From Vulcanimicrobiota bacterium (GTDB lineage: Bacteria; Vulcanimicrobiota; Vulcanimicrobiia; Vulcanimicrobiales; Vulcanimicrobiaceae), in the NCBI GenBank assembly GCA_963820825.1, contig CAWGBN010000008.1, positions 320,001-384,000 of the forward strand: a stretch of 64,000 bases of DNA. Reading direction: 5' to 3'. Positions 52,965 through 64,000 of this stretch are shown piece after piece (position 1 is the stretch's first letter; each line of letters opens with the position of its first letter). The notes below the pieces were generated by a model. The model saw only the letters and a program-made list of their open reading frames with translations, did no database searches and was not told where the DNA came from. Both the position numbers and the translations under genes were made by a program.

Positions 52965-52993
52965 GGCGTAGAACAACCTCTTCGGGGGGCGAG

Positions 52994-53059
52994 ACGAAGC
53001 AGCGGCGCGGTCGCCGTGACGCGCGATGGAACTCGTCCCGCGTCGCGCCGCTGCTTCGT
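52994..53059. terminator. Long inverted repeat between convergent genes
   Basis: Perfect 16-bp arms ACGAAGCAGCGGCGCG / CGCGCCGCTGCTTCGT. Confidence 0.6.
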
Positions 53060-53063
53060 TGAC

Positions 53064-54413
53064 TTACAACTGTCGGCGCTTGAGCAGACGCCGTGCCGGG
53101 ATGCCGTTGCGTCCAAAGGCGTCAATCCCGTGCGGTACCACCGGCATCGCATTGAGCTCGCGAGCAAGCGCGCCGGTGGCCGACGTCTTGCTGGTCAGAA
53201 CCCACGCCGCGTTATAGTTAAGCTGGTACCAAGGGCCGCCCCAGGCACCGAGGCTCTCCCACGCATTGCCATTTGAGTACATCGTATCCTGAAGCACCTC
53301 CACCATGCACACAGTGGTGTTGGTTGAATCGAGATAGTAGTCCATCGCGTTCGTCTCGTATATGCCCAAGATTGGGTCGAGATCCCAGTATGCTTCCTTC
53401 ACATCCGTGGCCTCTTCCCCGGAAAGCGTACCGCACGCCGACGGCATCGTCACCGTTCCGGCAACCGTATAATTGTCGACGTACGCGGGGTCGGGCAGCG
53501 CACCGCCTCCTGGATACCAGTCGGGCACCTGGGTCCTCCCGGTCGGGAAGGGCAATGGCGCCGTCCCCGAGGCCGTTACCGGGATATGCTCGTTTTTCAC
53601 CGCAGCGAACTTCCACGTTTCGGGGTTGACCCCGAGCCCCGGTAGGGAAAGCACGTACGTCGCCGGCTTGCCGAACGCGAAGTCGTACTGCTCGGCGTAG
53701 CCGCCATAGCTGCCGTAGTTCGCGAGCTGGTCCTGGCCAATGTACGAGCCGTCCGCGCCGTTGGTGCTACTGCCGTTGGCGCTGTATCCACCCGATCCGG
53801 TCTGCTTCTCAGAGTAGCTGGCGATACTTGCGGCCGCGCCACTCCAGGAGGAACCACTCGTCGCCGGATAGACGAATGCCGTCGCCCCTTGCGGATAAGT
53901 GGTCAAAGCGCTGTACTTAAACGTGCCGCTGGTTTCGGCAATCTTGGAAGAATAGTCAACCTGCGTGATAGACGACCCCGATGCGACGAAACCAAAGAGG
54001 GTCGATTGTTTCGACTTTCCTCCGGTCGATGTCGTATCTTTGGTTATCTCGGTATATATGCCGGTCTTCTTGTCGACGGAGAACTTGTAGATGAAAGTGC
54101 CGGTGGCGGTATTCGTTGGCCCCGGGCTCGGCGCGGCTGTCGGCCCGGACCATCTCGTAACGTTGTCGCTGCGATTCCATGCGTAAGTCAGGGTCTCGCC
54201 AGGGTTAAACGGGGGTGTCGCTTCGGTGTACGGCCCGGGCGGCCGAAGCAGCAGCCCTGAAGCCGTCTCGCGCACGGCCGCGGTCGAGTGCCCGGCATTG
54301 GGGAGTGCACTGGAACCCGAAGGCTGCATTCCAAGGCTCGAGCACGCCGCCACCCCGACGGCGCACATTCCTAGAAACAACGAACCAAGTCTTGGCCAAA
54401 GGCAACGATTCAT
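53064..54413 (-). CDS. Ser/Thr/Tyr-rich hypothetical secreted lipoprotein
   Basis: VAAC lipobox, AAAGGAG RBS, 449 aa. Confidence 0.8.
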   Translation of the reverse strand: MNRCLWPRLGSLFLGMCAVGVAACSSLGMQPSGSSALPNAGHSTAAVRETASGLLLRPPGPYTEATPPFNPGETLTYAWNRSDNVTRWSGPTAAPSPGPTNTATGTFIYKFSVDKKTGIYTEITKDTTSTGGKSKQSTLFGFVASGSSITQVDYSSKIAETSGTFKYSALTTYPQGATAFVYPATSGSSWSGAAASIASYSEKQTGSGGYSANGSSTNGADGSYIGQDQLANYGSYGGYAEQYDFAFGKPATYVLSLPGLGVNPETWKFAAVKNEHIPVTASGTAPLPFPTGRTQVPDWYPGGGALPDPAYVDNYTVAGTVTMPSACGTLSGEEATDVKEAYWDLDPILGIYETNAMDYYLDSTNTTVCMVEVLQDTMYSNGNAWESLGAWGGPWYQLNYNAAWVLTSKTSATGALARELNAMPVVPHGIDAFGRNGIPARRLLKRRQL

Positions 54414-54562
54414 CCGAGAGCTCCTTTCAATCCAACAGCGGCGAGGCCTGAAGGGCGAGGGATTCTAGCATCAAGCGGGCCCATTAGACCTAAGATGCGC
54501 CTACCTGCTGCCCTTGTAACATGTATCCATGATGGCGCTGCGGCGCGATTAGCGGAACGGAC

Positions 54563-54585
54563 ACTTGGACAACCGACTTGGACAA
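54563..54585. repeat. Tandem ACTTGGACAA boxes
   Basis: ACTTGGACAA at 54563 and 54576; partial TCGGACAAG near 54625. Confidence 0.5.
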
Positions 54586-54840
54586 GTGCGACCGATGCCG
54601 CCGAGGGCGTCAAGGCGCGGAGTCTCGGACAAGGCTTTAGAAGAAGCCTGTGCGTCGGCCCACGGCTCCGCGGGCACCTTGCCGCTCGGCGGACCGTCGT
54701 CTTACCGCGCCCCTTGCCGCAACCGGTATTGAATCCATGCTACTACACTTCTGCCCGCTGATGCTAAGCCGTGTGCGGGCACTCCGTTGACGACGTCGTC
54801 GCGAACCAATGCCTGATGGACACGATGGGCTTCGCCGAGG

Positions 54841-54871
54841 GATAATACATAAGGGCCTTCAAACGTCCGGT
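54841..54871. repeat. 31-bp direct repeat, copy 1 (dif-like)
   Basis: GATAATACATAAGGGCCTTCAAACGTCCGGT. Confidence 0.92.
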
Positions 54872-54890
54872 GCTGCCGACCCCAGCGCAT

Positions 54891-55887
54891 TCACGCCTCC
54901 GAGGATTGCTCGCTCTCGCCTGACTGATCGACCCGCAGGATGGCCTCCGCGATCTCCGCGTCTAGTCCGGGCTCGCTGGCTTTGCGAAGCTCAATAAGCC
55001 GGTCAGCCGCCCAAGTGGCCACTTTATCAATCTGGCTCGCAAGGGACGCTCGCTCGACGTTTTGAATGACGCGGATCGCCTGTCGGCGCCTGCCTTCTTG
55101 GAAGTCCCATGCGATGACACCGTTGACCCCTTCCTGGATCGAGTTCGAGCGCGCTCTAAGCAGTTCAAAAAGCCGCGCGTTAACGCCCGAGTCGGCGTGA
55201 TACAAAAAGACGTCCGAGCGTAGCTGATTCCGTCCAAAATTGACTGAGTACGCTATCGCTCCTTGGTGGGTTCGCTCCAGTACGTAGTCGGTATAGCGAC
55301 TCAAGGGCTCCAGCAATCGAGCGAATGCGCCACTGGCAACGGCGATCTCATGGATGCTGTCAAAAACCGCATTGAGTTGCTCTTGATCGGGCGCAACTTC
55401 GGTGCTCCTGGCTATCTGCGAAGTGCTTTTTTGCCACTGGTTCGGCAAGACCACAGTTCGGAAGTTGACCGCCGGCTTGGAGTCGTCGCAGCACTTCGAC
55501 TTGGATTCCAAAGAAATGCCTTGTGGCGATCGTGTTTACGTTAAGCCAGTCCAACGCCGCGCGATGCTCCTCCCGAAAAGTTGGGCTAATCCAGACGATG
55601 TGCCTTGCGTCTAATCCGGATGCATACGTCAGGATTTGGCCGAGGTGACGATGGTCGGTCGGTTCGATCTGGTTCTCGATGATGACTAGATCGTCCGTGC
55701 CAACGACGCGTGCGAGGATGTCTAATGAGAACGAGCCGACTTCGGCCTCACGTTTTAACAACTCTAGTTCGAGGCCTAGCATATCGCCGAGACGGTCAAG
55801 ATTGTCGGCAACCCACTTCGAGAAATGCACAGGTTCCGTAGGGAAGGTCTCACGAGGATTCAAGAAACGAAGCGTCCCGAGATCCAT
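54891..55887 (-). pseudogene. DUF4268-type protein with N-terminal PD-(D/E)XK nuclease-like domain, frameshifted near 55490
   Basis: FSLDILA...VIIENQIEPTDHRHLGQILTYASGL; continues as DDSKPAVNFRTVVLPNQW in ORF 54891-55511. Confidence 0.75.
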
Positions 55888-55951
55888 ATTAGCCTGTTCT
55901 CCTGAGATTGATATCGCTTAGCAGCTAAGAGCCTTCGGCGCGAGCGGCGCT

Positions 55952-55982
55952 GATATTACATAAGGGCCTTCAAACGTCCGGT
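55952..55982. repeat. 31-bp direct repeat, copy 2 (dif-like)
   Basis: GATATTACATAAGGGCCTTCAAACGTCCGGT. Confidence 0.92.
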
Positions 55983-56021
55983 TTGCGTTCGGCAGATCGC
56001 GACGCGGGCACATTGCCAGTC

Positions 56022-57044
56022 CTATAAAGCCAAGGTAATTACAACGGCAGAAATTCTTATGAGCGCGCGCTTCGTGAAGGAGTGAATCGTGTTGATGGGA
56101 GCCACGTTACCATTGGAGCCGGCGGCATAAACGTTTATTCCGGCTGCGCGCCCGTTTGCTTCGTAGATGTTGTCGGAGCTGTCCAGAGCGATGCCAATTG
56201 GACGTCGCATCGTTGTCAGGTGTCCATGGATCTTGCGGATGGGTGCTTCGTTGCCATCGGCTCCCGCGGGGTACACCGTAGAGATAGGCTGGATTGGAGT
56301 TAAAGTCTGCCACGTATATGTTCCCGCTGGAATCGAACGCGAGCTCCGTAGGATGAACCAATTTCGTACGGCTGCCAGCGATCGTTCGCATGGGCGTAAC
56401 GTTAGCCGTGCTGCCAGCGGCGTAGACGGTGATAGACGCCCCCGGCGTTTGCAACGTAAATGTTTCCACTTGTGTCCAGCGTGATCCCAGCCGGGAAAGA
56501 CAGTCCGGTACTTGGGCCGCTGATTACTCCGAGGGGAGCGACGTTTCCACTTGCGCTCGCTGCGTAGATCGTGATGCTGTTGTTTTCCAGAGTTTGCAAC
56601 GTAGAACTCTTCATTGTATTGGTCGAAGGCAATGCCGAAAGGGCTGTTCAATCCCGTTGCTGGGCCTCTTATCTTCTGTATTGGCGCGACATTCCCCATC
56701 GCGCCAGCGGCGTAGACGGTAACGGAGTCCCCACCGCCCTGGTTTGTAACATACAGGTTGCCGCTTCCATCTTCCGCGACGTCCCTCGGCGCAGCAAGCC
56801 TGGTGTTTGAGCCGCTTATCTCTCGTATCTGCGCCCAGTTGCCGCTGGTGCCTTCGCGCCCAAAGACCGCCAACGTCCTGCTCCATAAGGTATATAGGCA
56901 GGGGCACGAACTCGTGCTCCGTTTGATAGTTCCTGATTGGTTTTGCTGAGCGGCGTTCGCGCTTGAAAAGAGGGTATTTCCCCCGCAGCTTGTAAGTAAC
57001 AAAATCGCCATCGATGGGGCAACGATGTACGTTGCGGTTGACAT
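56022..57044 (-). pseudogene. NHL-repeat beta-propeller lipoprotein, several frameshifts
   Basis: LTSC lipobox; repeated PxGIALDSSxNIYVAN...VYAAGxxGNVAP units spread over three frames. Confidence 0.75.
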
Positions 57045-57167
57045 GCGCACAATCACGCTCCTTTTTCTGCAACTTGCAATGCGCGGCAAGGTCCTAAGCT
57101 ACTTATCTAATGATCCCTGCCGCCCTCCTGGTGAATCAAAGGACAAGGCGGTCGGACCGCGGTTGCC

Positions 57168-57198
57168 GATACTACATAAGGGCCTTCAAACGTCCTGT
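57168..57198. repeat. 31-bp direct repeat, copy 3 (dif-like)
   Basis: GATACTACATAAGGGCCTTCAAACGTCCTGT. Confidence 0.92.
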
Positions 57199-57210
57199 TA
57201 GCCTGCGTCC

Positions 57211-59208
57211 TCATCCGTTGCTTACTGCATGCGTCATCGCTGGCACCCATGCAAACGAGAAGAGGTCGCGCATCCCATCTGCATCGATTCCGTTCGGTCC
57301 CACCCCGAACGCGTCGAAGAGTCTGCCGTACTTGCGGGTAAGCGCATAAACCAGGTTTACGTTCTCCTCAATCTGCTGCTCCGGCAGTTCCGGGTATTCG
57401 TCCGTCCGATTGCGGTGCGCCACATATTGGTTGGTGATGGTTACCAGCGCACGGCAAGCCTTCTTGAGCGCCTTTATGTCAGCCGCAATCTTCTCCGAGC
57501 TCATGTGAGTACCTGAGGCATCGGCAATGGCGGCAAAAGCTGCGGCGGCTTCGCCTTCGTATCGCTCTTGCCATTCGCGCCGAACCGACAGCGCTCTGGT
57601 CTTGAGCGTCTCGACGCACTTCTCAAGGCCGTAGGCCGTCGGATTGAGTTTTAGCTCTGTTAGGAAGTTTAGGAGGGAGACGCTGCGAACATCTGAGTCG
57701 ATCTGGCGGCGTACAGCCACCATGACGGATTCGACGACGGCTCTAGCGATGAACAAGAACATGTAGATGCTCGCAGGATGCTCGACGACGCGCGCATTCG
57801 ACATGCCAGCCGCGTGAATGACCTTGAAGTGTTGCCATACCGTCCAAGCATTGTTGATTTCAATGCCGATGGTTTCGATGTCAGCCTTCCATCTCGCGAT
57901 AAGGGCTTCGTCTGTGGGGATGCGACGGCGTTCCCATGGCTTGATCGCAACGAGTGTGCGGCGGAAGAACTCAAGGAAGCGCTCCAGGTCTGCGTGTGGA
58001 TCGGGATTGTAGAATGTGCCCGAGCCATCTTCGTGTTGCACTAAGACGACGTGCTTCATCGGTGAGCCGAGCAGAGCGAGCTTCGCCTTGTAACGAGCCA
58101 TAGCGATGACGTAATCACGCATCTCGCCTGTGAAGTAGTCCGCATCAGTGAAGTAGCCGAGCTCGACGGCTTTCGCGTCGATCTCTTCGTCGCTAAAATC
58201 GTTATCGTCGGCGTAGACTACCTGCTGGGTCAACAGCTCACGGTGAACCGAAGTGTGCCGCATATCGCGCAATAGCCCATAACTATCCCAGAACGCGTCC
58301 TCTTTGAACAGCGCATAAACCTCCGGTGCGCTCTGCTTGATAGCGCGTTGAAACGATGACTTGAGAGCGCCTATTTGAGAATCTGGAGTTGGCAAGTTGT
58401 ATGCTCTTACGATCAACGTCGCGGTTTGATCGAACGCGGTGTAAAGATTCACGTAGAACTGATTTAGATAGGCAGTGTATTCGAAACGGAAATCCTGACG
58501 CTCGAACCCTGCTCGGTGCGCCCAGCGATCCTGCTGACGGTAGAATGCCATCCGGTCGCGACTAAAGCAGAGCGTCTGGAGAGTCAGTACGAGCAGGCGC
58601 ATCGCTTCCGCGGTTTCCGACGACACCTTCTTCGACTGCTCCCACTCGTGGAGAATGTCCGTGAAAATGCTGTGCTCGCTCATTGCGTAGAACTGCATCC
58701 ATGGTTGAAACTTCGCCGCCCCTTCGAACGACCACGGAGCGTTAAAACCCTTGGCATGCAATTCCGCTTGTCGCAGAACTCCGGCTATCGTGCTCGTCAC
58801 CAGCGCCGAATCGTCGGTGATGGCTGGATGCAGCTGCTTTTCGTCGCCCGACAGAACAACGTCGCAGTCGTAGCGTCTCGCGATTCGTGCAACCTCGTCG
58901 GCGTCGGACTCATCGAAAGCCGCAATCTTACTAAACTCGACGGTGAGCGATTCGAGCGTGGCAATCGCAGTAGCCGCCTGCGCGGGAACGAACAACGTGA
59001 CCTTCAGATCATCGAAGCCGAGGTCCGCGAAATACCAGTTCAGCAGTTGGATGCGCGCGAGCCGTTCGCTGTTTGCGGCGTCCAGGGTCTGGTCGGCGAC
59101 GAGCACGTCCAATCCCCTCTTCCAGAGACCCGTGCTCGTTATCGTAGCCGTGCCGTAATCGTAGAGGAACCGTAGGGCGAGATTCCGTGGAATCATTTGA
59201 ACCACCAT
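57211..59208 (-). CDS. Multidomain HEPN protein (possible PIN-like + HEPN + AbiU2-like HEPN)
   Basis: 665 aa. Acidic N-terminal motif (SDADEV...DCDVVLSGD), RHTSVH (Rx4H), and a C-terminal DSDVRSVSL...TNQYVAHRN segment resembling AbiU2. Confidence 0.6.
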   Translation of the reverse strand: MVVQMIPRNLALRFLYDYGTATITSTGLWKRGLDVLVADQTLDAANSERLARIQLLNWYFADLGFDDLKVTLFVPAQAATAIATLESLTVEFSKIAAFDESDADEVARIARRYDCDVVLSGDEKQLHPAITDDSALVTSTIAGVLRQAELHAKGFNAPWSFEGAAKFQPWMQFYAMSEHSIFTDILHEWEQSKKVSSETAEAMRLLVLTLQTLCFSRDRMAFYRQQDRWAHRAGFERQDFRFEYTAYLNQFYVNLYTAFDQTATLIVRAYNLPTPDSQIGALKSSFQRAIKQSAPEVYALFKEDAFWDSYGLLRDMRHTSVHRELLTQQVVYADDNDFSDEEIDAKAVELGYFTDADYFTGEMRDYVIAMARYKAKLALLGSPMKHVVLVQHEDGSGTFYNPDPHADLERFLEFFRRTLVAIKPWERRRIPTDEALIARWKADIETIGIEINNAWTVWQHFKVIHAAGMSNARVVEHPASIYMFLFIARAVVESVMVAVRRQIDSDVRSVSLLNFLTELKLNPTAYGLEKCVETLKTRALSVRREWQERYEGEAAAAFAAIADASGTHMSSEKIAADIKALKKACRALVTITNQYVAHRNRTDEYPELPEQQIEENVNLVYALTRKYGRLFDAFGVGPNGIDADGMRDLFSFAWVPAMTHAVSNG

Positions 59209-59278
59209 GTTCTACAGCGCAGCGCGTCGCCGTCCGCCCTAGACCGTTTCAGCCCAGGAGAGTAGAGTATCACGTTCG

Positions 59279-60625
59279 TCAAGGCCTCTGGTTTCGTTCA
59301 GGGCTGTTGCTTGCGCGGCCGGTGACTCGGCGCCGGTTATTCTCGGCGAGCACGGCGCCTCGTTTCTTCGCCGCCTCGCCTCCGTGCCCGGGATTAAGAC
59401 CGGCCGCACGCATCTCAGCAAGCCGCGCCTGCGCCTTCTCGATCGGCTTCGCTACCTCGACGCTATAGCGCAGATAGCAATGGCGCCCGCAGAACTTCAG
59501 TCCTTTCCGCGGTAGCGGCTCCTTGCAGTAGCCGCAGGTGGACTCGATCCCACGCCGCGCGCCGCTGCTCGATCGGCTTCGGCGCTTCGCGAACCAGCCG
59601 CCGCGGCACGGCGATCCGGCGCAACTGCTTGGCGTAGTCGTTCGCGAGCTCCAGCGCCGCCTTGCGGAAACGGGGCATCAGCGCCGAGGCGAGGAGTCCC
59701 GTCAGATCGGGATCGAGCCGTACAACCCCATCGCGCAGCTCATGGAACATCGCCGGGTGCAGCTTCTCTTTGTGGAGCAGCTCCAGCGCCCACACGTCGG
59801 CCTTCGCTCGCAGCGGTTCGAGCAGATCGTAGATGAACGATTCGCGCAGCCGATCGTCGGTGTGGAGCAGCCCAAGGTCGGGGTCGAGCCCGACCGCCTC
59901 GCAGGCGATCCGCGTCTCCACTTCGAGCAGCGTATAGCAGTAGTTCAGGATCGCGTTGAACGGATCGGTCGCATCGCGTACCCGTTCGCGTCTCCCGTTT
60001 GTCCGCGGACGAGATCGCCGCCCAGTGCGCCGGTATCCGCTTGAGTGCCCACGGTCGCCACGGCAGCGGCGTCTCGACTAGGAGATTCCAGTAGACTTGT
60101 GCGGCACGTCCCTCCAGCGCGAGGAAGTCCACAAGCGTCGTCGTTTCCATCAGCGACGCTTTGCATGCGTGGATTTCCGAGGTTGCCGTGGACTTCCCGG
60201 AGACGTTCACGATTCCGAGTCTCGGAAAGTCTCGTTCGATCGCGGAAATCTGCGAGTCCAGTTTCTTTTCCAAGGAGGTACCGCGCCAAGTTCACCGCGT
60301 CGTCCGTCACCGCGGAGACCGCCTGTGCCCGCTTCACCGGTCCGTCGTGCGGCGCGTCGGGAACCATGCAGTTCAGCAAGGTACTGTCGGACGCCACGAA
60401 CGAGACGGCGATCCCCATGCGGGCACACCAGTCGATCGCCTCCATCGAGACGGTCCCGCCCGGCGCGCGAATGACGATCCGTTCGATCGAGCACCGTCCG
60501 CGCGGGAAGCGGATTTCCCGGGTCTTTCCTTCGCTTGCGAAACCGTCGCGCGTGACGAGGTGGCCTCGCTCGACAAATAGTTGCGCGTTGTAGCCTTCGA
60601 TGGTGAGAACGCGATCATTGTGCAT
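59279..60625 (-). CDS. cas1: Stand-alone Cas1 (casposase-like) with C-terminal zinc finger; three frameshifts as assembled
   Basis: N-domain GGTVSMEAIDWCARMGIAVSF; LEGRAAQVYW (Glu); ATDPFNAILNYCYTLLE; GLDPDLGLLHTD (His); SFIYDLLEPLR. Tail CGYC...FCGRHC, stop at 59279. Indels near 60270, 60005 and 59545. Confidence 0.9.
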
Positions 60626-61616
60626 GGTCTACTCCAATGACTTTTGGAACGAGTTTGTAGGTTGTTGCAAACGAGTCGATTGCGGTATCGATCCCCTGTG
60701 TGTCACCAGCGAGGTAAGCCGCCATATTCGCTATGCCCCTCTCGTCGTGACTGACGTCGAATGCACCAGCATAGGCGAGGCTGCGAAGCGCAGCATCCGT
60801 CGCCTCGAACTCCGATGCATCTTCGACGATCGGGTAGCTGGGCACCGGACGAATCGGCACGCGCACGCCGGCCGCTTCCAAACGCCCAATGAGCAGCGCC
60901 TGCATCTGCATCGTCTGAACCGCAGCGCGAACCTCCGGCTCGGGGGCATCTCCACTCGTAACGATCTGAAAATGGCTGTGCCGGCCCTGACGAAGCCAAG
61001 GCGTGATTTGGTCTAGTAGAAGCATTGCTTTGGGTGCAAACTCGATCGCTGCGCTCTCATCAACGCGCATCATTGTAAGTAATCGAATAACGTCGCGCTC
61101 GAAGAAAGCGCCCTCGTTGTAGGCTACGGGAAGCAGCATGCGGGCGGCATGCTCGGTAAGGTCTCGCGCTAGTTGGTAGGCGGGGTCAGCTTTGATCTTT
61201 CGCTTCGGCACGAACTCATTCGCCAGCTGTCGCGCAAGATGCGGGATGCGCCGCGGATGAAAGCCGATGCCGCTCCAGCTGTTCGCGCGATGGAGCTCCC
61301 GATCGACCTTCGCCAACGCCGCGGAAATTCGATCGCGGGCGCCGCGATGCACCCGGTCCCATGGAATGGTGTGGTAGTTGCGATAGGCCAGTTCGAGACA
61401 GAGGCCATCATGATCGCGGGCAAGCTGCATAGTGCCCTCGATCGACAATATGTATCGCAGATCGATCAGCGCGGCATCGGAGATCCGGTATTGGCGTCCG
61501 CAGCGCGTCGAGCGTACGCCAAAAATGCGTAGCCGGTGCAACTTGTCCGACCCGATCCTAAAGCCCTCAGCCCGCAGCTGGTCGAGGGCCTCGCTCAAAA
61601 GCGGTCCGTCAACCAC
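60615..61616 (-). CDS. Hypothetical protein (possible N-terminal DNA-binding domain), overlaps cas1 start
   Basis: 333-aa ORF whose stop overlaps the cas1 start by 11 nt. Confidence 0.65.
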   Translation of the reverse strand: MVDGPLLSEALDQLRAEGFRIGSDKLHRLRIFGVRSTRCGRQYRISDAALIDLRYILSIEGTMQLARDHDGLCLELAYRNYHTIPWDRVHRGARDRISAALAKVDRELHRANSWSGIGFHPRRIPHLARQLANEFVPKRKIKADPAYQLARDLTEHAARMLLPVAYNEGAFFERDVIRLLTMMRVDESAAIEFAPKAMLLLDQITPWLRQGRHSHFQIVTSGDAPEPEVRAAVQTMQMQALLIGRLEAAGVRVPIRPVPSYPIVEDASEFEATDAALRSLAYAGAFDVSHDERGIANMAAYLAGDTQGIDTAIDSFATTYKLVPKVIGVDHAQ

Positions 61617-61716
61617 CTAGAGGGTATTCGGCGCGGCAGCTTTTGGCTCCGCGTGAAGTTGTCAGTTCCGCGCCTTTTCTGGCGGCGTAGCAGGCGTCAG
61701 AAAGGAGGCCTGAGTC

Positions 61717-62214
61717 ATGGCCAAATCACGGGTGTTCCTGGGCATCGACCAACTGTTCTACCACCAGGACGCGTATCGACGCGCCCTCGATGCGATCGGC
61801 TTCAAGCGCCGACATCCCAAAATGTCGTTCACGAAAGCTGCGAAGCTGAGCGGCACCACGATCAAGACGGTTCGCAAGTACGCCGGATCGGCAATGGAGG
61901 TCCGATCCGGACGGATCGACGTAACGCGAACAGATGCGCTCAAGCGCCGGATGCGCATGCTCACGCCCCAGGGTGAGATCGCGGTCCCGACGACGAGCTC
62001 GCAGACTGCCTCGCGGATCAGCCGGTACAACAACGCGGTGCGCGAGTTTTACGCCACCGGCAAGACGGCGGCGCTCAAGCCATTCGTTGGTAAGTCAGTG
62101 CGTTCGGGTGGAAAGCGGTACGAGTTCGTCACGAATCCCGCCACGCTCAACCGGCTTGGCCGCGCTGGCAGCGTACACTTCTCGGAGATCTATGCTCCTG
62201 AGTCCGAATCATGA
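61717..62214 (+). CDS. Basic HTH-containing hypothetical protein
   Basis: AAAGGAGG RBS; SFTKAAKLSGTTIKTVRKYA helix-turn-helix pattern; ATGA overlap with the next gene. Confidence 0.75.
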   Translation: MAKSRVFLGIDQLFYHQDAYRRALDAIGFKRRHPKMSFTKAAKLSGTTIKTVRKYAGSAMEVRSGRIDVTRTDALKRRMRMLTPQGEIAVPTTSSQTASRISRYNNAVREFYATGKTAALKPFVGKSVRSGGKRYEFVTNPATLNRLGRAGSVHFSEIYAPESES

Positions 62215-62853
62215 GGCCCGTCTATCAGGAGCCAAACGACGGCAACGACACCAAGAAGCTGCTGCGCTTGGGCACCGATCGGCCGCGCTGTGCGAGCTGC
62301 CGGACCGACGACTTCCGGCAGCTCTGCTCCGTGCACGACGCTCGGGGCCGCAGACGGATCTTATGCCGGAACTGCCGCGCCAAGCACAAGCGCCTCTCAG
62401 CAGCAGCTGCAGCACGCAAACGGCGGCAGTTTGCAGCTGACGGCTACGAGCAGCCTGCATGCGTGGTGTGCGGGGAGCCAGCGCTGCAGCTGCTTGAGCG
62501 CGATCACCTCACGGGAGCTGCCAATAGCGGTAGCACGGAGCCTTTGTGCGCTAATCATCACGCGATCAAGTCGTACATGGCCGAGCACGGGCTGATGGCA
62601 GCTCTGCGGCTGCGTGATCCGGAGCGATCGGCCTTGCTTTTGCAGGCAGCATTCGAGTTCGGCCTTGGTGCGATGCTCGGGATGTTCGCAGTTGGGACGG
62701 CGCGCACGGAGAGACGGCACGCTGCATCTTCTTGGGTCGCCTCCGTGCTGCTCTTTGCATGGGCTGCGTGGAACGTTTCGGCGGACTGCGTACTTCGAGG
62801 GTGTACTGGGACCGGGCTACGATCGCGCGATCGGGGCGGCGGTGCCGCGATGA
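62211..62853 (+). CDS. Zinc-finger/HNH-like protein with hydrophobic C-terminus (frameshifted)
   Basis: CASC, CRNC, CVVC...RDHLTG...LCANHH. The likely true end YFEGVLGPGYDRAIGAAVPR* at 62853 overlaps the polB ATG. Confidence 0.65.
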
Positions 62854-64000
62854 TCCGGCGCGAGGCTCCGCGGGCGCGAAGGCGTCCCAACGGGCTCCGA
62901 AGGGCGCGGCCGCAAGCCTCAGCACCGTCCGAACTCGTCGCAATGGCGGCTCAGCCCCCTATCAGCAGGCGCAGGACGGGCATTCTCGCCGTCGATACGG
63001 CGATTCGGGCGTGGGTCGAACCGCACAAGGCGCACAGCGCGTCAACGGTAAGCCGAAGACCGTTGCGTGGCGTCCGCAGCCCTACGGCGATCGCGTTCTG
63101 GTCTTCGACACGGAAACCACGACCGACGCGGCGCAGCGGCTCCTCTTCGGGTTCTTTCGCCTCTACGAGCGTCGATCGGCTGATCGAGGAAGGCCTCATC
63201 GTCACCGACCTGCTCGATTACGAGCAGATGATGACGCTCGACCGAATACGCGGCGACAATGCCACTTGCCGATCTACAGCCGCGAGCGCTTCGTGGAAGA
63301 AGTGTTCTACCCGGAGGTTTACGAGCGACGGCACCCTCTGCGTGGGCTTCAACCTGCCGTTCGATCTCACGCGGATCGCCGTTCACGCGGGAATCGGCCG
63401 TGGCGAAAATCGCCGCAAGTTCCGCCTGGTCACTTTCGAGGCGCATTCGCTGGCACGATTTACGCATTGAATCCGCCTCGGGCCGTGCAGCCTTTATCGG
63501 GTTCATCCCCAAGCGCAAGCTCTTCGCGTGGGAGAAGCCGTTCTTCGCCGGGCGCTTCTGCGATCTCAGCACGCGTCGCAGTGCGTTCACCGGCAAGCGT
63601 CATACGCTCAAAAGCGCGGGCAATGCATTTACGGACCTAGCACGCGCAAGATGACGTGCGCCGGAGCTCGGCGTGATCGACCGGCGCTCCTGCTCTACGG
63701 GCGGCAGGACGTCCGTGCAACCTGGGCACTGTACAAGGCGCTACGTGCAGTGAGTACGAGCGACACCCCTTCGCTACGTTCGCGAACGAGCGCAGCAAAC
63801 CCAAGCACGGGCACGTTACATGGGGCGAGCTGTATTCCAGCGCGAGCATTGCCAAGCAATATCTGCGCCTGCTCGGGATTACGCCGCTGCTACATAAGCG
63901 CCCGGCACTTCTCGCGCAAGCTCTGGGCAACGCGATCGCCGCGTACTTCGGCGGCCGGGCCGACGTGCGCGTACGCAAGACGGACGTGCCGGTGCGCGTG
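62850..64000 (+). CDS. polB: Family B DNA polymerase, protein-primed type, N-terminal part; frameshifted, runs off window
   Basis: Across frames: ExoI VFDTETT, ExoII GFNLPFDL, ExoIII YGRQDV, and YFGGR preceding the expected motif A. Confidence 0.8.

What the first reader, a model, noticed from the sequence alone, without database searches (positions are those of the whole stretch)
59279..64000. Casposon-like element hidden by frameshifts
Seen: Cas1 catalytic motifs (LEGRAA, GLLHTD, DLLEPLR) split across frames, with no cas2, cas3 or CRISPR array in the window. A divergent operon runs HTH, HNH-like, then PolB (DTET, GFNLPFDL, YGRQD, YFGGR). Established: solo Cas1 plus family B polymerase, often with HNH and HTH genes, defines casposons, which are sparse in bacteria. 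Inference: a bacterial casposon in a little-studied lineage that ORF-level annotation would likely miss.
Basis: partly seen in the sequence, partly recalled or inferred. Interest (0 to 1): 0.78.

Follow-up and report, generated by a model that had tools for sequence, protein, structure and literature searches.

The report
Truncated casposon copy in an Eremiobacterota genome
This is a damaged, one-ended copy of a casposon, a transposon that inserts with a Cas1 enzyme and carries its own DNA polymerase; intact relatives are common in one little-studied bacterial lineage and always land at the same spot in one host gene.

Summary
A Cas1 gene (59279-60625, minus strand) is cut by three 1-nt insertions. 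Facing away from it are an HTH gene, an HNH-like gene and a family B polymerase. The polymerase changes frame about 30 times and runs to 65873, past the window end.

Nineteen related loci from Eremiobacterota MAGs keep the same gene order, mostly with intact genes. They show casposon hallmarks: a conserved 38-nt terminal motif in inverted orientation, two perfect 14-bp target duplications, tandem arrays, and one fixed insertion point in a conserved 412-aa host gene. That gene is split at this point in at least 10 of 90 same-genus genomes. It is intact in this genome.

No Cas2, Cas3 HD domain or CRISPR array was found in the genome (85% complete).

The window copy keeps only its Cas1-side end: leader, 14-bp target copy and terminal motif at 54807-54876. 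It is cut off at the polymerase 3' end.

Whether the frameshifts are real is open. Substitutions look selected and there are no in-frame stops. Indels are mostly 1-nt insertions and cluster in the polymerase.

I file it as a new member of a known kind, not reported for this phylum in the papers searched. Internal direct copies of the end motif behind each cargo gene remain unexplained.

The parts
54774..54824 (+). Remnant of the last ~17 codons of the usual target gene. It includes the conserved 'leader' CAATGCCTGATGGACACG at 54807-54824.
   Evidence: tblastn with the N-terminal half of the target gene from L013 and L016. The same leader stands before the end motif in L013, L016, L018, L023 and L025, and in diverged form in L017, L022 and L024.
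54825..54838 (+). 14-bp copy of the target site, ATGGGCTTCGCCGA. This is one side of the target-site duplication; its partner is missing.
   Evidence: The same 14 bp occurs once in this genome's intact target gene, at C8:190673-190686. It flanks the ends in relatives.
54839..54876 (+). Terminal motif r1, the Cas1-side end of the element: GGGATAATACATAAGGGCCTTCAAACGTCCGGT...
   Evidence: Weight-matrix score 49.5 bits. Homologous to the ends of the 1242-bp inverted repeat of L013.
54891..55887 (-). Cargo gene, candidate defence gene PDC-S11 (DUF4268, nuclease-like). It is split by one frameshift near 55360-55511.
   Evidence: PADLOC PDLC04911 matches profile positions 4-138 at 7.4e-59 in one frame and 140-311 at 2.3e-16 in another. 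Pfam DUF4268 at 3e-06.
55950..55987 (+). Internal direct copy r2 of the terminal motif. It starts CTGATA and has no target copy before it.
   Evidence: 30 of 36 positions match r1.
56022..57089 (-). Cargo gene, a lipoprotein with NHL-like repeats, read in several overlapping frames (frameshifted).
   Evidence: Overlapping ORFs in three frames. The NHL label is my reading of the repeats and comes from no family search. It is not related to the F2 lipoprotein in the L013 arms.
57166..57203 (+). Internal direct copy r3 of the terminal motif. It starts CCGATA.
   Evidence: 30 of 36 positions match r1 and 32 of 36 match r2.
57211..59208 (-). Cargo gene, an intact 665-aa protein with an AbiU2-type HEPN domain (abortive-infection-like).
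   Evidence: Pfam HEPN_AbiU2 at 1.1e-08 and HEPN_Cthe2314 at 0.0012. No PADLOC model matched.
59279..60625 (-). Cas1 (casposase) gene with a C-terminal Cys-rich (zinc-binding-like) tail. It has three frameshifts, near 59544, 60010 and 60265.
   Evidence: Catalytic E170, H253, D265 and E268 are invariant in 8 intact relatives.
60615..61748 (-). Conserved gene upstream of Cas1 (family F7, unknown function), with no frameshift. Relatives carry either F7 or an unrelated F4 at this place.
   Evidence: 84% identical to the L012 protein over 377 residues in one frame. 0 gaps in 1002 nt. No Pfam, NCBIfam or PHROG match.
61696..62214 (+). It is the first gene of the operon that faces away from Cas1.
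   Evidence: 88% identical to the L012 protein. Found in 15 of 19 related loci. No family match, so 'HTH' is not shown.
62211..62850 (+). HNH-like Cys-rich protein, with frame changes near 62690, 62737 and 62788.
   Evidence: The L012 orthologue matches PHROG 'HNH endonuclease' only weakly, at 4.3e-4.
62985..64000 (+). Family B DNA polymerase gene, N-terminal third. It continues beyond the window to 65873 (L003 11873). It has about 30 frame changes, and its last ~14 codons and everything beyond are replaced by unrelated DNA.
   Evidence: Homology to L012 ends at L003 11861.

Best explanation
The region 54839-65873 is one copy of a casposon family that is common in this Eremiobacterota genus.

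How intact members work. The first points are shown by comparing loci.
- The element ends in inverted copies of a ~38-nt motif that begins GGGATA.
- It inserts at one 14-bp site (ATGGGnTTCGCnGA) in the middle of a conserved 412-aa host gene.
- A conserved 'leader' (CARTGCCTGATGG) lies 5 nt upstream of that site.
- The 14 bp are duplicated on both sides of the insert.
- Repeated use of the site gives tandem arrays.

The following steps are inferred from studied casposases. The Cas1 protein, with its C-terminal Cys-rich tail, binds the ends and joins their 3' ends (...CCC-3') to the two target strands 14 bp apart. The element's polymerase, or a host polymerase, fills the gaps and copies the element. 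The HNH-like and small conserved proteins assist.

Between the core and the ends the elements carry variable cargo, largely candidate anti-phage genes.

The window copy cannot move. It keeps its Cas1-side junction (leader, 14-bp copy, end motif), next to only an ~80-nt scrap of the target gene. It is cut off inside the 3' end of the polymerase gene, so it has no second end. As assembled, Cas1, HNH and PolB are also frameshifted.
For: Gene order. Of 19 related loci, 13 have PolB, 12 have HNH and 15 have the small protein on the strand opposite to Cas1. Of the six without PolB, five hold under 2.6 kb on that side. The sixth (L024) is a 4.8-kb deletion derivative.

Ends and duplications.
- L013 has a 1242-bp inverted repeat at 97.6% identity bounding 16.25 kb.
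- Its 14-bp flanking repeat matches 14 of 14.
- L017 matches 14 of 14, L022 12 of 14, L029 11 of 14 and L024 about 12 of 14.
- Tandem junctions made of end, 14 bp and end occur in L017, L022, L024 and L029.

Target.
- The end motif abuts the target gene in L011, L012, L013 (both sides), L014, L016, L018, L020, L023, L025 and the window.
- The gene is present in 87 of 90 other genus genomes. In at least 10 it is broken at residues ~173-189 into two halves. Six of these lie on one contig, 3.1-17 kb apart.
- It is intact in this genome.

Cas1.
- The intact relatives pass the general Cas1 model (108.6 bits against a 71.7 cut-off) and no subtype model.
- The best solved-structure match is 6OPM, the M. 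mazei casposase, at 4.2e-22. The best CRISPR Cas1 match is at 1.1e-17.
- A second Cas1 class in the phylum (30-37% identical) sits beside PolB in 3 of 4 loci fetched.

PolB.
- Exo I-III, motifs A-C and KRY are invariant in 8 sequences.
- 5 of 8 match Pfam PF03175, best 1.3e-8.

No Cas2, Cas3_HD or array was found.

Truncation. Homology to L012 stops at L003 11861. No end motif lies to the right anywhere on the contig.
Against: - No second end or second target copy exists for this copy, so its own mobility history cannot be shown.
- The junction sits beside a scrap of the target gene, not in the genome's real target gene, and I cannot say how it got there.
- No named casposase references could be put in a tree.
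- The polymerase profile found nothing among solved structures. It aligned to phi29 polymerase and E. coli Pol II at only 17.6% and 15.6% probability, though motifs B, C and KxY aligned correctly.
- The L012 polymerase itself has no Pfam match.
- HNH and HTH rest on weak or no family matches.
- The roles of Cas1 and PolB are inferred from other casposons and were not tested.
Confidence: 0.85

Rival explanations
1. The frameshifts are consensus (assembly) errors in a poorly covered, strain-variable stretch. In the cells, Cas1, HNH and PolB of this copy are intact reading frames. The copy would still be a casposon and still lack one end.
For: - Once indels are removed, PolB against L012 has pN/pS 0.24 and 0 in-frame stops in 968 codons. 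Intact pairs give 0.23-0.28.
- On the window's own branch there are 69 synonymous, 70 non-synonymous and 0 stop changes. On the L012 branch there are 55, 42 and 0. That is far from neutral.
- PolB has 43 one-nt insertions, 21 one-nt deletions and 9 two-nt insertions in 2813 nt. Only 5 of the 43 insertions lie next to an identical base. The neighbouring F7 gene has 0 gaps in 1002 nt at similar divergence. So many indels against so few neutral substitutions is unlike ordinary gene decay.
- A second case in the same assembly: the start of C9 and the end of C2 differ by 155 mismatches and 42 gap openings in 5.6 kb.
- In relatives PolB is fragmented in 5 of 13 loci.
Against: - The assembly is otherwise sound. 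It has 436 ORFs of 500 aa or more in 2.98 Mb. Four host genes compared with relatives are unbroken.
- Structural damage is real and not a base-calling matter. The second end is missing. A second Cas1 remnant on C6 is cut by an IS3 element.
- Other genomes hold copies with stop codons. G154 has 1 TAA and G158 has 3 TGA. G194 holds one intact and one broken copy.
- No reads could be examined. No independent assembly holds these proteins; each was seen on one contig only.
Confidence: 0.5
2. The locus is a domesticated remnant. The transposition genes are dead, but the cargo (AbiU2-like HEPN protein) and perhaps F7 and the small HTH-like protein are kept because they serve the host, for instance in phage defence.
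For: - The 665-aa HEPN gene, F7 and the small protein together span about 3.5 kb without one frameshift. The rest of the island has about 40.
- Cargo in relatives is rich in defence-type genes. These include DruA, SIR2 with HerA, a Type ISP restriction enzyme, PDC-S59 and PDC-S11.
Against: - The other candidate defence gene here (PDC-S11) is itself frameshifted.
- No expression or function data exist.
- The uneven spread of indels may be technical.
Confidence: 0.15
3. The Cas1 gene is the last trace of a decayed CRISPR-Cas locus, and the polymerase beside it belongs to an unrelated element such as a pipolin.
For: Pfam and NCBIfam name the protein simply Cas1. Public annotations call the relatives CRISPR-associated.
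Against: - Cas1 and PolB stay linked in 13 of 19 loci, inside one pair of inverted ends.
- No Cas2, Cas3_HD or array was found in this genome. No Cas family appeared among 43 neighbouring proteins in relatives.
- No tyrosine recombinase lies in the elements.
- The polymerase has KRY, not the KTRG that defines pipolin polymerases (PMC5695915, passages).
Confidence: 0.02

Closest known systems
Family 3 (bacterial) casposons, e.g. AceAut-C1, NitAL212-C1, HenMar-C1, StrAlb-C1 (Krupovic et al. 2014, PMC4046053, and 2016, PMC4779613; passages read)
   Same: Bacterial host. Solo Cas1 with PolB, an HNH gene and a small conserved protein. Terminal inverted repeats and target duplication. [quoted passage not shown]
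   Different: Family 3 polymerases are described as RNA-primed type. Here 5 of 8 match Pfam PF03175 ('organellar and viral') and 1 of 8 matches PF00136 at 0.11. All family 3 elements were reported in intergenic regions, whereas these split a protein-coding gene at mid-length. The phylum was not reported in the papers searched (0 papers).
Family 2 casposons of Methanosarcina mazei and Aciduliprofundum boonei, and the M. mazei casposase (PDB 6OPM; PMC6977970, passages read)
   Same: 14-bp target duplication. Site-specific insertion guided by sequence upstream of the duplicated segment. A 3'-terminal C at the element end. Tandem arrays that share one duplication, with a dead polymerase gene in one copy (PMC4779613). 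Core of Cas1, PolB, HNH and HTH proteins. Best solved-structure match of this Cas1.
   Different: Archaeal hosts, with targets at tRNA gene 3' ends or in intergenic DNA. Sequence identity is low; the match covers mainly residues 203-308.
Family 1 casposons of Thaumarchaeota
   Same: Insertion in a protein-coding gene (the 3'-distal part of aEF-2), and a polymerase of the protein-primed group (PMC4779613, passages).
   Different: Archaeal. The Cas1 has no HTH. No HNH or HTH gene set is reported. The target is the 3' end of a gene, not its middle.
Pipolins (PMC5695915, passages read)
   Same: Bacterial self-replicating elements whose divergent family B polymerase shares the TPR1/TPR2 subdomains of protein-primed polymerases (PMC5695915). 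They often carry defence cargo (PMC11551731, abstract only).
   Different: Pipolins use tyrosine recombinases, and their polymerases have KTRG in place of KxY. Here the integrase is Cas1 and the motif is KRY.

Membership tests
Casposons (superfamily) | Cas1 homologue with the catalytic residues, not linked to cas2 or a CRISPR array | tested here: met
   Pfam Cas_Cas1 at 2.2e-36 for the L012 orthologue. E170, H253, D265 and E268 are invariant. Cas2, Cas3_HD and arrays were not found in the genome, which is 85% complete. 0 of 43 neighbouring proteins in relatives match a Cas family.
Casposons (superfamily) | Family B DNA polymerase gene in the same element | tested here: met
   Exo I-III, motifs A, B, C and KxY are invariant in 8 sequences. 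PF03175 matches 5 of 8. The window copy keeps Exo I-III, B, C and KxY. Weak points: no PDB sequence match and low hhalign probabilities.
Casposons (superfamily) | Terminal inverted repeats | tested here: met
   Met for the family. L013 has 1242 bp at 97.6%. Inverted end motifs occur in L017, L022, L024 and L029. This copy has one end only, at 54839-54876; no partner was found on the contig.
Casposons (superfamily) | Target-site duplication of 14-15 bp | tested here: met
   L013 and L017 match 14 of 14. L022 matches 12 of 14, L029 11 of 14 and L024 about 12 of 14. The single 14-bp site is seen in the unoccupied gene. This copy has one side only.
Casposons (superfamily) | Cas1 falls in the casposase clade in a phylogeny | tested here: inconclusive
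   No tree with named references could be made. Indirect evidence only. The best solved match is casposase 6OPM at 81.9 bits, against 67.4 bits for a CRISPR Cas1. No CRISPR subtype model is passed. The next Cas1 class in the phylum is PolB-linked in 3 of 4 loci.
Family 3 casposons | RNA-primed type PolB (PMC4779613) | tested here: inconclusive
   Pfam points to PF03175 (5 of 8) rather than PF00136 (1 of 8, at 0.11). The KxY motif is the canonical KRY. No PolB tree was made.
Family 3 casposons | Insertion in intergenic regions (as reported for all members, PMC4779613) | tested here: not met
   Insertion falls after about residue 186 of a 412-aa gene.
CRISPR-Cas adaptation module | cas1 next to cas2 and a repeat array | tested here: not met
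Pipolins | Tyrosine recombinase and a piPolB with KTRG | tested here: not met
   No Phage_integrase match among the 53 proteins of the window and of relatives' elements and flanks that were scanned with Pfam. KRY is invariant.

The most novel reading that the evidence does not exclude
The direct internal copies of the end motif are footprints of cargo capture. Each follows one cargo gene, and each resembles its own element's terminal copy more than it resembles other elements' ends. On this reading, the casposon gains single genes at its end by a step that duplicates the ~31-76-nt end motif. The result is a repeat-gene-repeat-gene-repeat array next to Cas1. That would be a living analogue of the step proposed between casposon ends and CRISPR repeats, or a Cas1-driven counterpart of integron cassettes.
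Probability: 0.1. Interest if true: 0.85.

Novelty: new member of a known kind. Interest (0 to 1): 0.5.

Why it matters
Published bacterial casposons number a handful, and none has been studied at the bench. This family offers many intact members, sharply defined ends, a 14-bp duplication and a single conserved target with a recognisable upstream leader. That makes target recognition by a bacterial casposase directly testable.

The family also shows casposons acting as carriers of anti-phage genes in an uncultured soil phylum.

It is a warning for annotation too. The relatives are labelled 'CRISPR-associated Cas1' in public records, and this copy would be missed by ORF-based annotation altogether.

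The window copy itself is ordinary wreckage.

Tried and rejected
- Inverted repeats within the copy itself: only chance-level pairs.
- tRNA genes as targets: none in the window or in 18 loci.
- Rfam on 54000-64000: only one sub-threshold snoRNA match.
- A fourth end-motif copy beyond PolB: none.
- The idea that the motif-gene-motif unit of the window matches the unit in the L013 arms: rejected, because the two lipoproteins are unrelated.
- My first label for the target gene, 'clostripain (C11)-like', came from recalled motifs. It found no support: no Pfam match and no PDB match. I now call it a gene of unknown family.
- Island borders from the two closest genomes: homology covers only the neighbouring lipoprotein gene, 52976-54589.
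- A near-identical copy in another genome, to check the frameshifts: the best is 83% identical.
- Public sequencing runs for the element: none was listed, so no reads were laid.
- Structure prediction of the polymerase: the tool was not accepting jobs, so no fold search was made.
- Polymerase profile against solved structures: nothing real.
- hhalign to phi29 polymerase and E. coli Pol II: the motifs align, but probabilities are low and do not separate the two types.
- Earlier-findings look-ups by place and by sequence: nothing.

Full report
**What is in the window**

The window is G000:C8:320001-384000, from a 2.98-Mb, 9-contig genome that is 85% complete.

On the minus strand an intact 443-aa relative (P0019) aligns to 59306-60619 over its residues 2-438. 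It does so in four pieces of 81-92% identity, in frames -3, -1, -2 and -3. The three frame changes lie near 60265, 60010 and 59544, and each looks like a single inserted base. The pieces carry LEGRAA, GLLHTD and DLLEPLR. The last large piece matches Pfam Cas_Cas1 at 3.4e-13.

Upstream on the same strand is an unbroken gene of unknown family (F7, 60615-61748).

Facing away from them is an operon with three genes:
- A small conserved protein (61696-62214, intact).
- A Cys-rich HNH-like protein (62211-~62850, broken at its end).
- A family B polymerase that starts at 62985 and runs past the window end to 65873. Against its closest intact orthologue it changes frame about 30 times.

The polymerase retains Exo I, II and III, YFGGR, motif B, motif C (CDTDS) and KxY (SAKRY). 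Motif A was not found with my pattern.

Genome-wide, Cas_Cas1 matches only this locus. Cas2 and Cas3_HD match nothing. A repeat scan found no CRISPR-like array.

**Relatives**

A search with the C-terminal Cas1 piece found 190 proteins at E<=1e-5 among 3430 candidates. The 120 listed are 70-92% identical, mostly 430-467 aa, and many come from Eremiobacterota MAGs.

A scan of one genome per species returned 19 loci. On the strand opposite to Cas1, PolB is found in 13 of 19, HNH in 12 of 19 and the small protein in 15 of 19. Of the six loci without PolB, five hold under 2.6 kb on that side. The sixth is a short deletion derivative. PolB is a single unbroken match in 8 of the 13 and fragmented in 5.

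The closest relative (L012) is 83% identical over 6582 nt, equal to window 59328-65861.

Distribution:
- In the genus, 24 of 90 other genomes match the core DNA.
- In a sample of the phylum, 40 of 401 genomes match Cas1 at E<=1e-40, and about 25 of them are at 52% identity or more. This tally includes one genome flagged unpublished, G275.

**Ends, duplication and target**

A ~38-nt motif beginning GGGATA(n)TACATAAGGGC recurs near these Cas1 genes and almost nowhere else. There are six copies in this genome, all beside the two Cas1 remnants or, in one case, alone on C6.

In L013 the motif forms the tips of a 1242-bp inverted repeat at 97.6% identity that encloses 16.25 kb. Directly outside it stands a 14-bp direct repeat.

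| Locus | Match between the two 14-bp flanks |
|---|---|
| L013 | 14 of 14 |
| L017 | 14 of 14 |
| L022 | 12 of 14 |
| L029 | 11 of 14 |
| L024 | about 12 of 14 |

Junctions of the form end, 14 bp, end show tandem elements.

The duplicated 14 bp (ATGGGnTTCGCnGA) lies in the middle of a conserved 412-aa gene. A conserved upstream stretch (CARTGCCTGATGG) sits 5 nt before it. End motifs abut one or the other half of that gene in L011, L012, L013, L014, L016, L018, L020, L023 and L025.

The gene is found in 87 of 90 other genomes of the genus. About 64 have it whole. At least 10 have it broken at residues ~173-189 into two halves; six of these lie on one contig, 3.1-17 kb apart. This genome has it whole, with the 14 bp present once. 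The gene has no Pfam or PDB match.

A 14-bp duplication, dependence on sequence upstream of it, a 3'-terminal C at the element end and tandem arrays are all described for studied casposons (PMC6977970 and PMC4779613, passages read).

**The window copy**

Leader, 14-bp copy and end motif stand at 54807-54876. Only ~80 nt of the target gene remain beside them.

Reading inward from that end, the cargo is:
- A PDC-S11 candidate defence gene, split by one frameshift.
- A frameshifted lipoprotein gene.
- An intact 665-aa AbiU2-type HEPN gene.

The core follows. Homology to L012 stops about 14 codons before the end of PolB, 56 nt from the stop codon of a convergently oriented S46 peptidase gene. No second end exists on the contig. 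This copy therefore cannot transpose, whatever the status of its frames.

A second remnant on contig C6 keeps only the Cas1 C-terminus. It is 80% identical in DNA, is cut by an IS3 element, and has an end motif further on.

**Are the frameshifts real?**

Evidence that they are technical:
- With indels removed, PolB against L012 has pN/pS 0.24 and no in-frame stop in 968 codons, like intact pairs at 0.23-0.28.
- Changes private to the window branch are 69 synonymous, 70 non-synonymous and 0 stops. The L012 branch has 55, 42 and 0.
- The indels are mostly single-base insertions: 43, against 21 single-base deletions. Only 5 of the 43 lie next to an identical base.
- The indels cluster. PolB has 82 gaps in 2813 nt, while F7 has none in 1002 nt at similar divergence.

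Evidence that they are real:
- The rest of the assembly is sound, with 436 ORFs of 500 aa or more.
- The structural damage is real.
- Broken copies with stop codons occur in other genomes.

No run was listed for the stretch. No independent assembly holds these proteins. I leave it at about even odds.

**What kind of Cas1 and PolB**

Intact relatives pass the general Cas1 model but no CRISPR subtype model. Their best solved-structure match is the M. mazei casposase 6OPM at 4.2e-22. The best CRISPR Cas1 is at 1.1e-17.

A profile search of 1.84 billion representatives found 558 clusters at E<=1e-30. Many are ~500-540 aa and align through the Cys-rich tail. A second Cas1 class in this phylum (30-37% identical) lies beside PolB in 3 of 4 loci fetched.

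The polymerase has all family B motifs, with KRY. 5 of 8 sequences match Pfam PF03175. Atlas look-alikes are ~1000-aa bacterial polymerase clusters in which 12-36% of members carry PF03175. The profile finds no solved structure by sequence.

**Comparison with the literature**

Bacterial (family 3) casposons are described from a few Actinobacteria, Proteobacteria and 'Ca. Acetothermum'. They are reported as intergenic and as having RNA-primed-type polymerases (PMC4046053 and PMC4779613, passages). The present family differs in phylum, in its target (mid-gene) and probably in polymerase type.

Searches for casposon together with Eremiobacter, WPS-2 or Vulcanimicrobi found 0 papers. Supplementary tables of the casposon papers were not read and could list more hosts.

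This scan has already met bacterial casposons on other DNA, which tempers the novelty.

**Unexplained**

Two further copies of the end motif (55950, 57166) lie inside the element in the same orientation as the terminal one. Each sits 7-34 nt behind a cargo gene and has no 14-bp copy before it. Internal copies also occur in L013, L014 and L022.

They match their own element's terminal copy at 30-35 of 36 positions in three of four elements, and at 22 of 36 in L014. Ends of different elements match at a mean of 23.4 of 36 over 55 pairs.

They therefore arise in place. How they arise is open, and the length of the duplicated stretch varies from ~31 to ~76 nt.

Noticed in passing
G000 contig C2 407264-411947 (L009) and contig C9 1-3800 (L010): A second HNH-like plus 1017-aa PolB module lies at two contig ends. 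It is intact on C2. On C9 it is frameshifted; the two copies are 96.3% identical, with 155 mismatches and 42 gap openings in 5.6 kb. Its PolB is 65% identical to one that lies beside a second-class Cas1 in another genome of the phylum (L040). It is probably a second casposon family whose Cas1 is not assembled here.
   Followed up: partly
G000 contig C6 ~619900-626330 (L004 9188-16328): Second remnant of the same family. A Cas1 C-terminus (137-aa ORF, 80% DNA identity to the window copy) is cut by an IS3-family element. End-motif copies lie at C6 625001 (with a target-like 14 bp beside it) and 626291.
   Followed up: partly
G000 contig C8 190133-191368 (L042 5133-6371): The family's usual target gene (412 aa, no Pfam or PDB match) is intact and unoccupied in this genome. 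The window copy sits 184 kb away beside only a scrap of such a gene.
   Followed up: yes
L012 408-4492 and 11414-13952; L017 11457-14512; L020 1049-4471; L013 11368-12735: Cargo of related elements is largely defence-type. It includes DruA with a HerA-like ATPase, SIR2 with HerA, a Type ISP restriction-modification enzyme, a RelA/SpoT-like protein and PDC-S59 (2.7e-126).
   Followed up: partly
L029 13920-15574 and L024 9220-~13990: Short derivatives are bounded by the same inverted ends and 14-bp repeats. One is a 1.65-kb unit without Cas1 or PolB. The other is a 4.8-kb unit with a truncated Cas1. They look like non-autonomous relatives.
   Followed up: no
L013 1589-2828 and 16601-17842: The 1242-bp inverted arms each contain a whole lipoprotein gene, bracketed by an outer and an inner copy of the end motif.
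   Followed up: partly
G113 contig C2 292839-294146 and 308156-309460: Two full-length Cas1 genes of this family (76% and 75% identical to P0019) lie 15 kb apart on one contig, as expected for a tandem pair.
   Followed up: no
window beyond its end: L003 17600-18600 (C8 ~391600-392600): An IS3-family element with the usual two overlapping frames lies 6 kb beyond the truncated polymerase. Copies of it also flank the C6 remnant.
   Followed up: no
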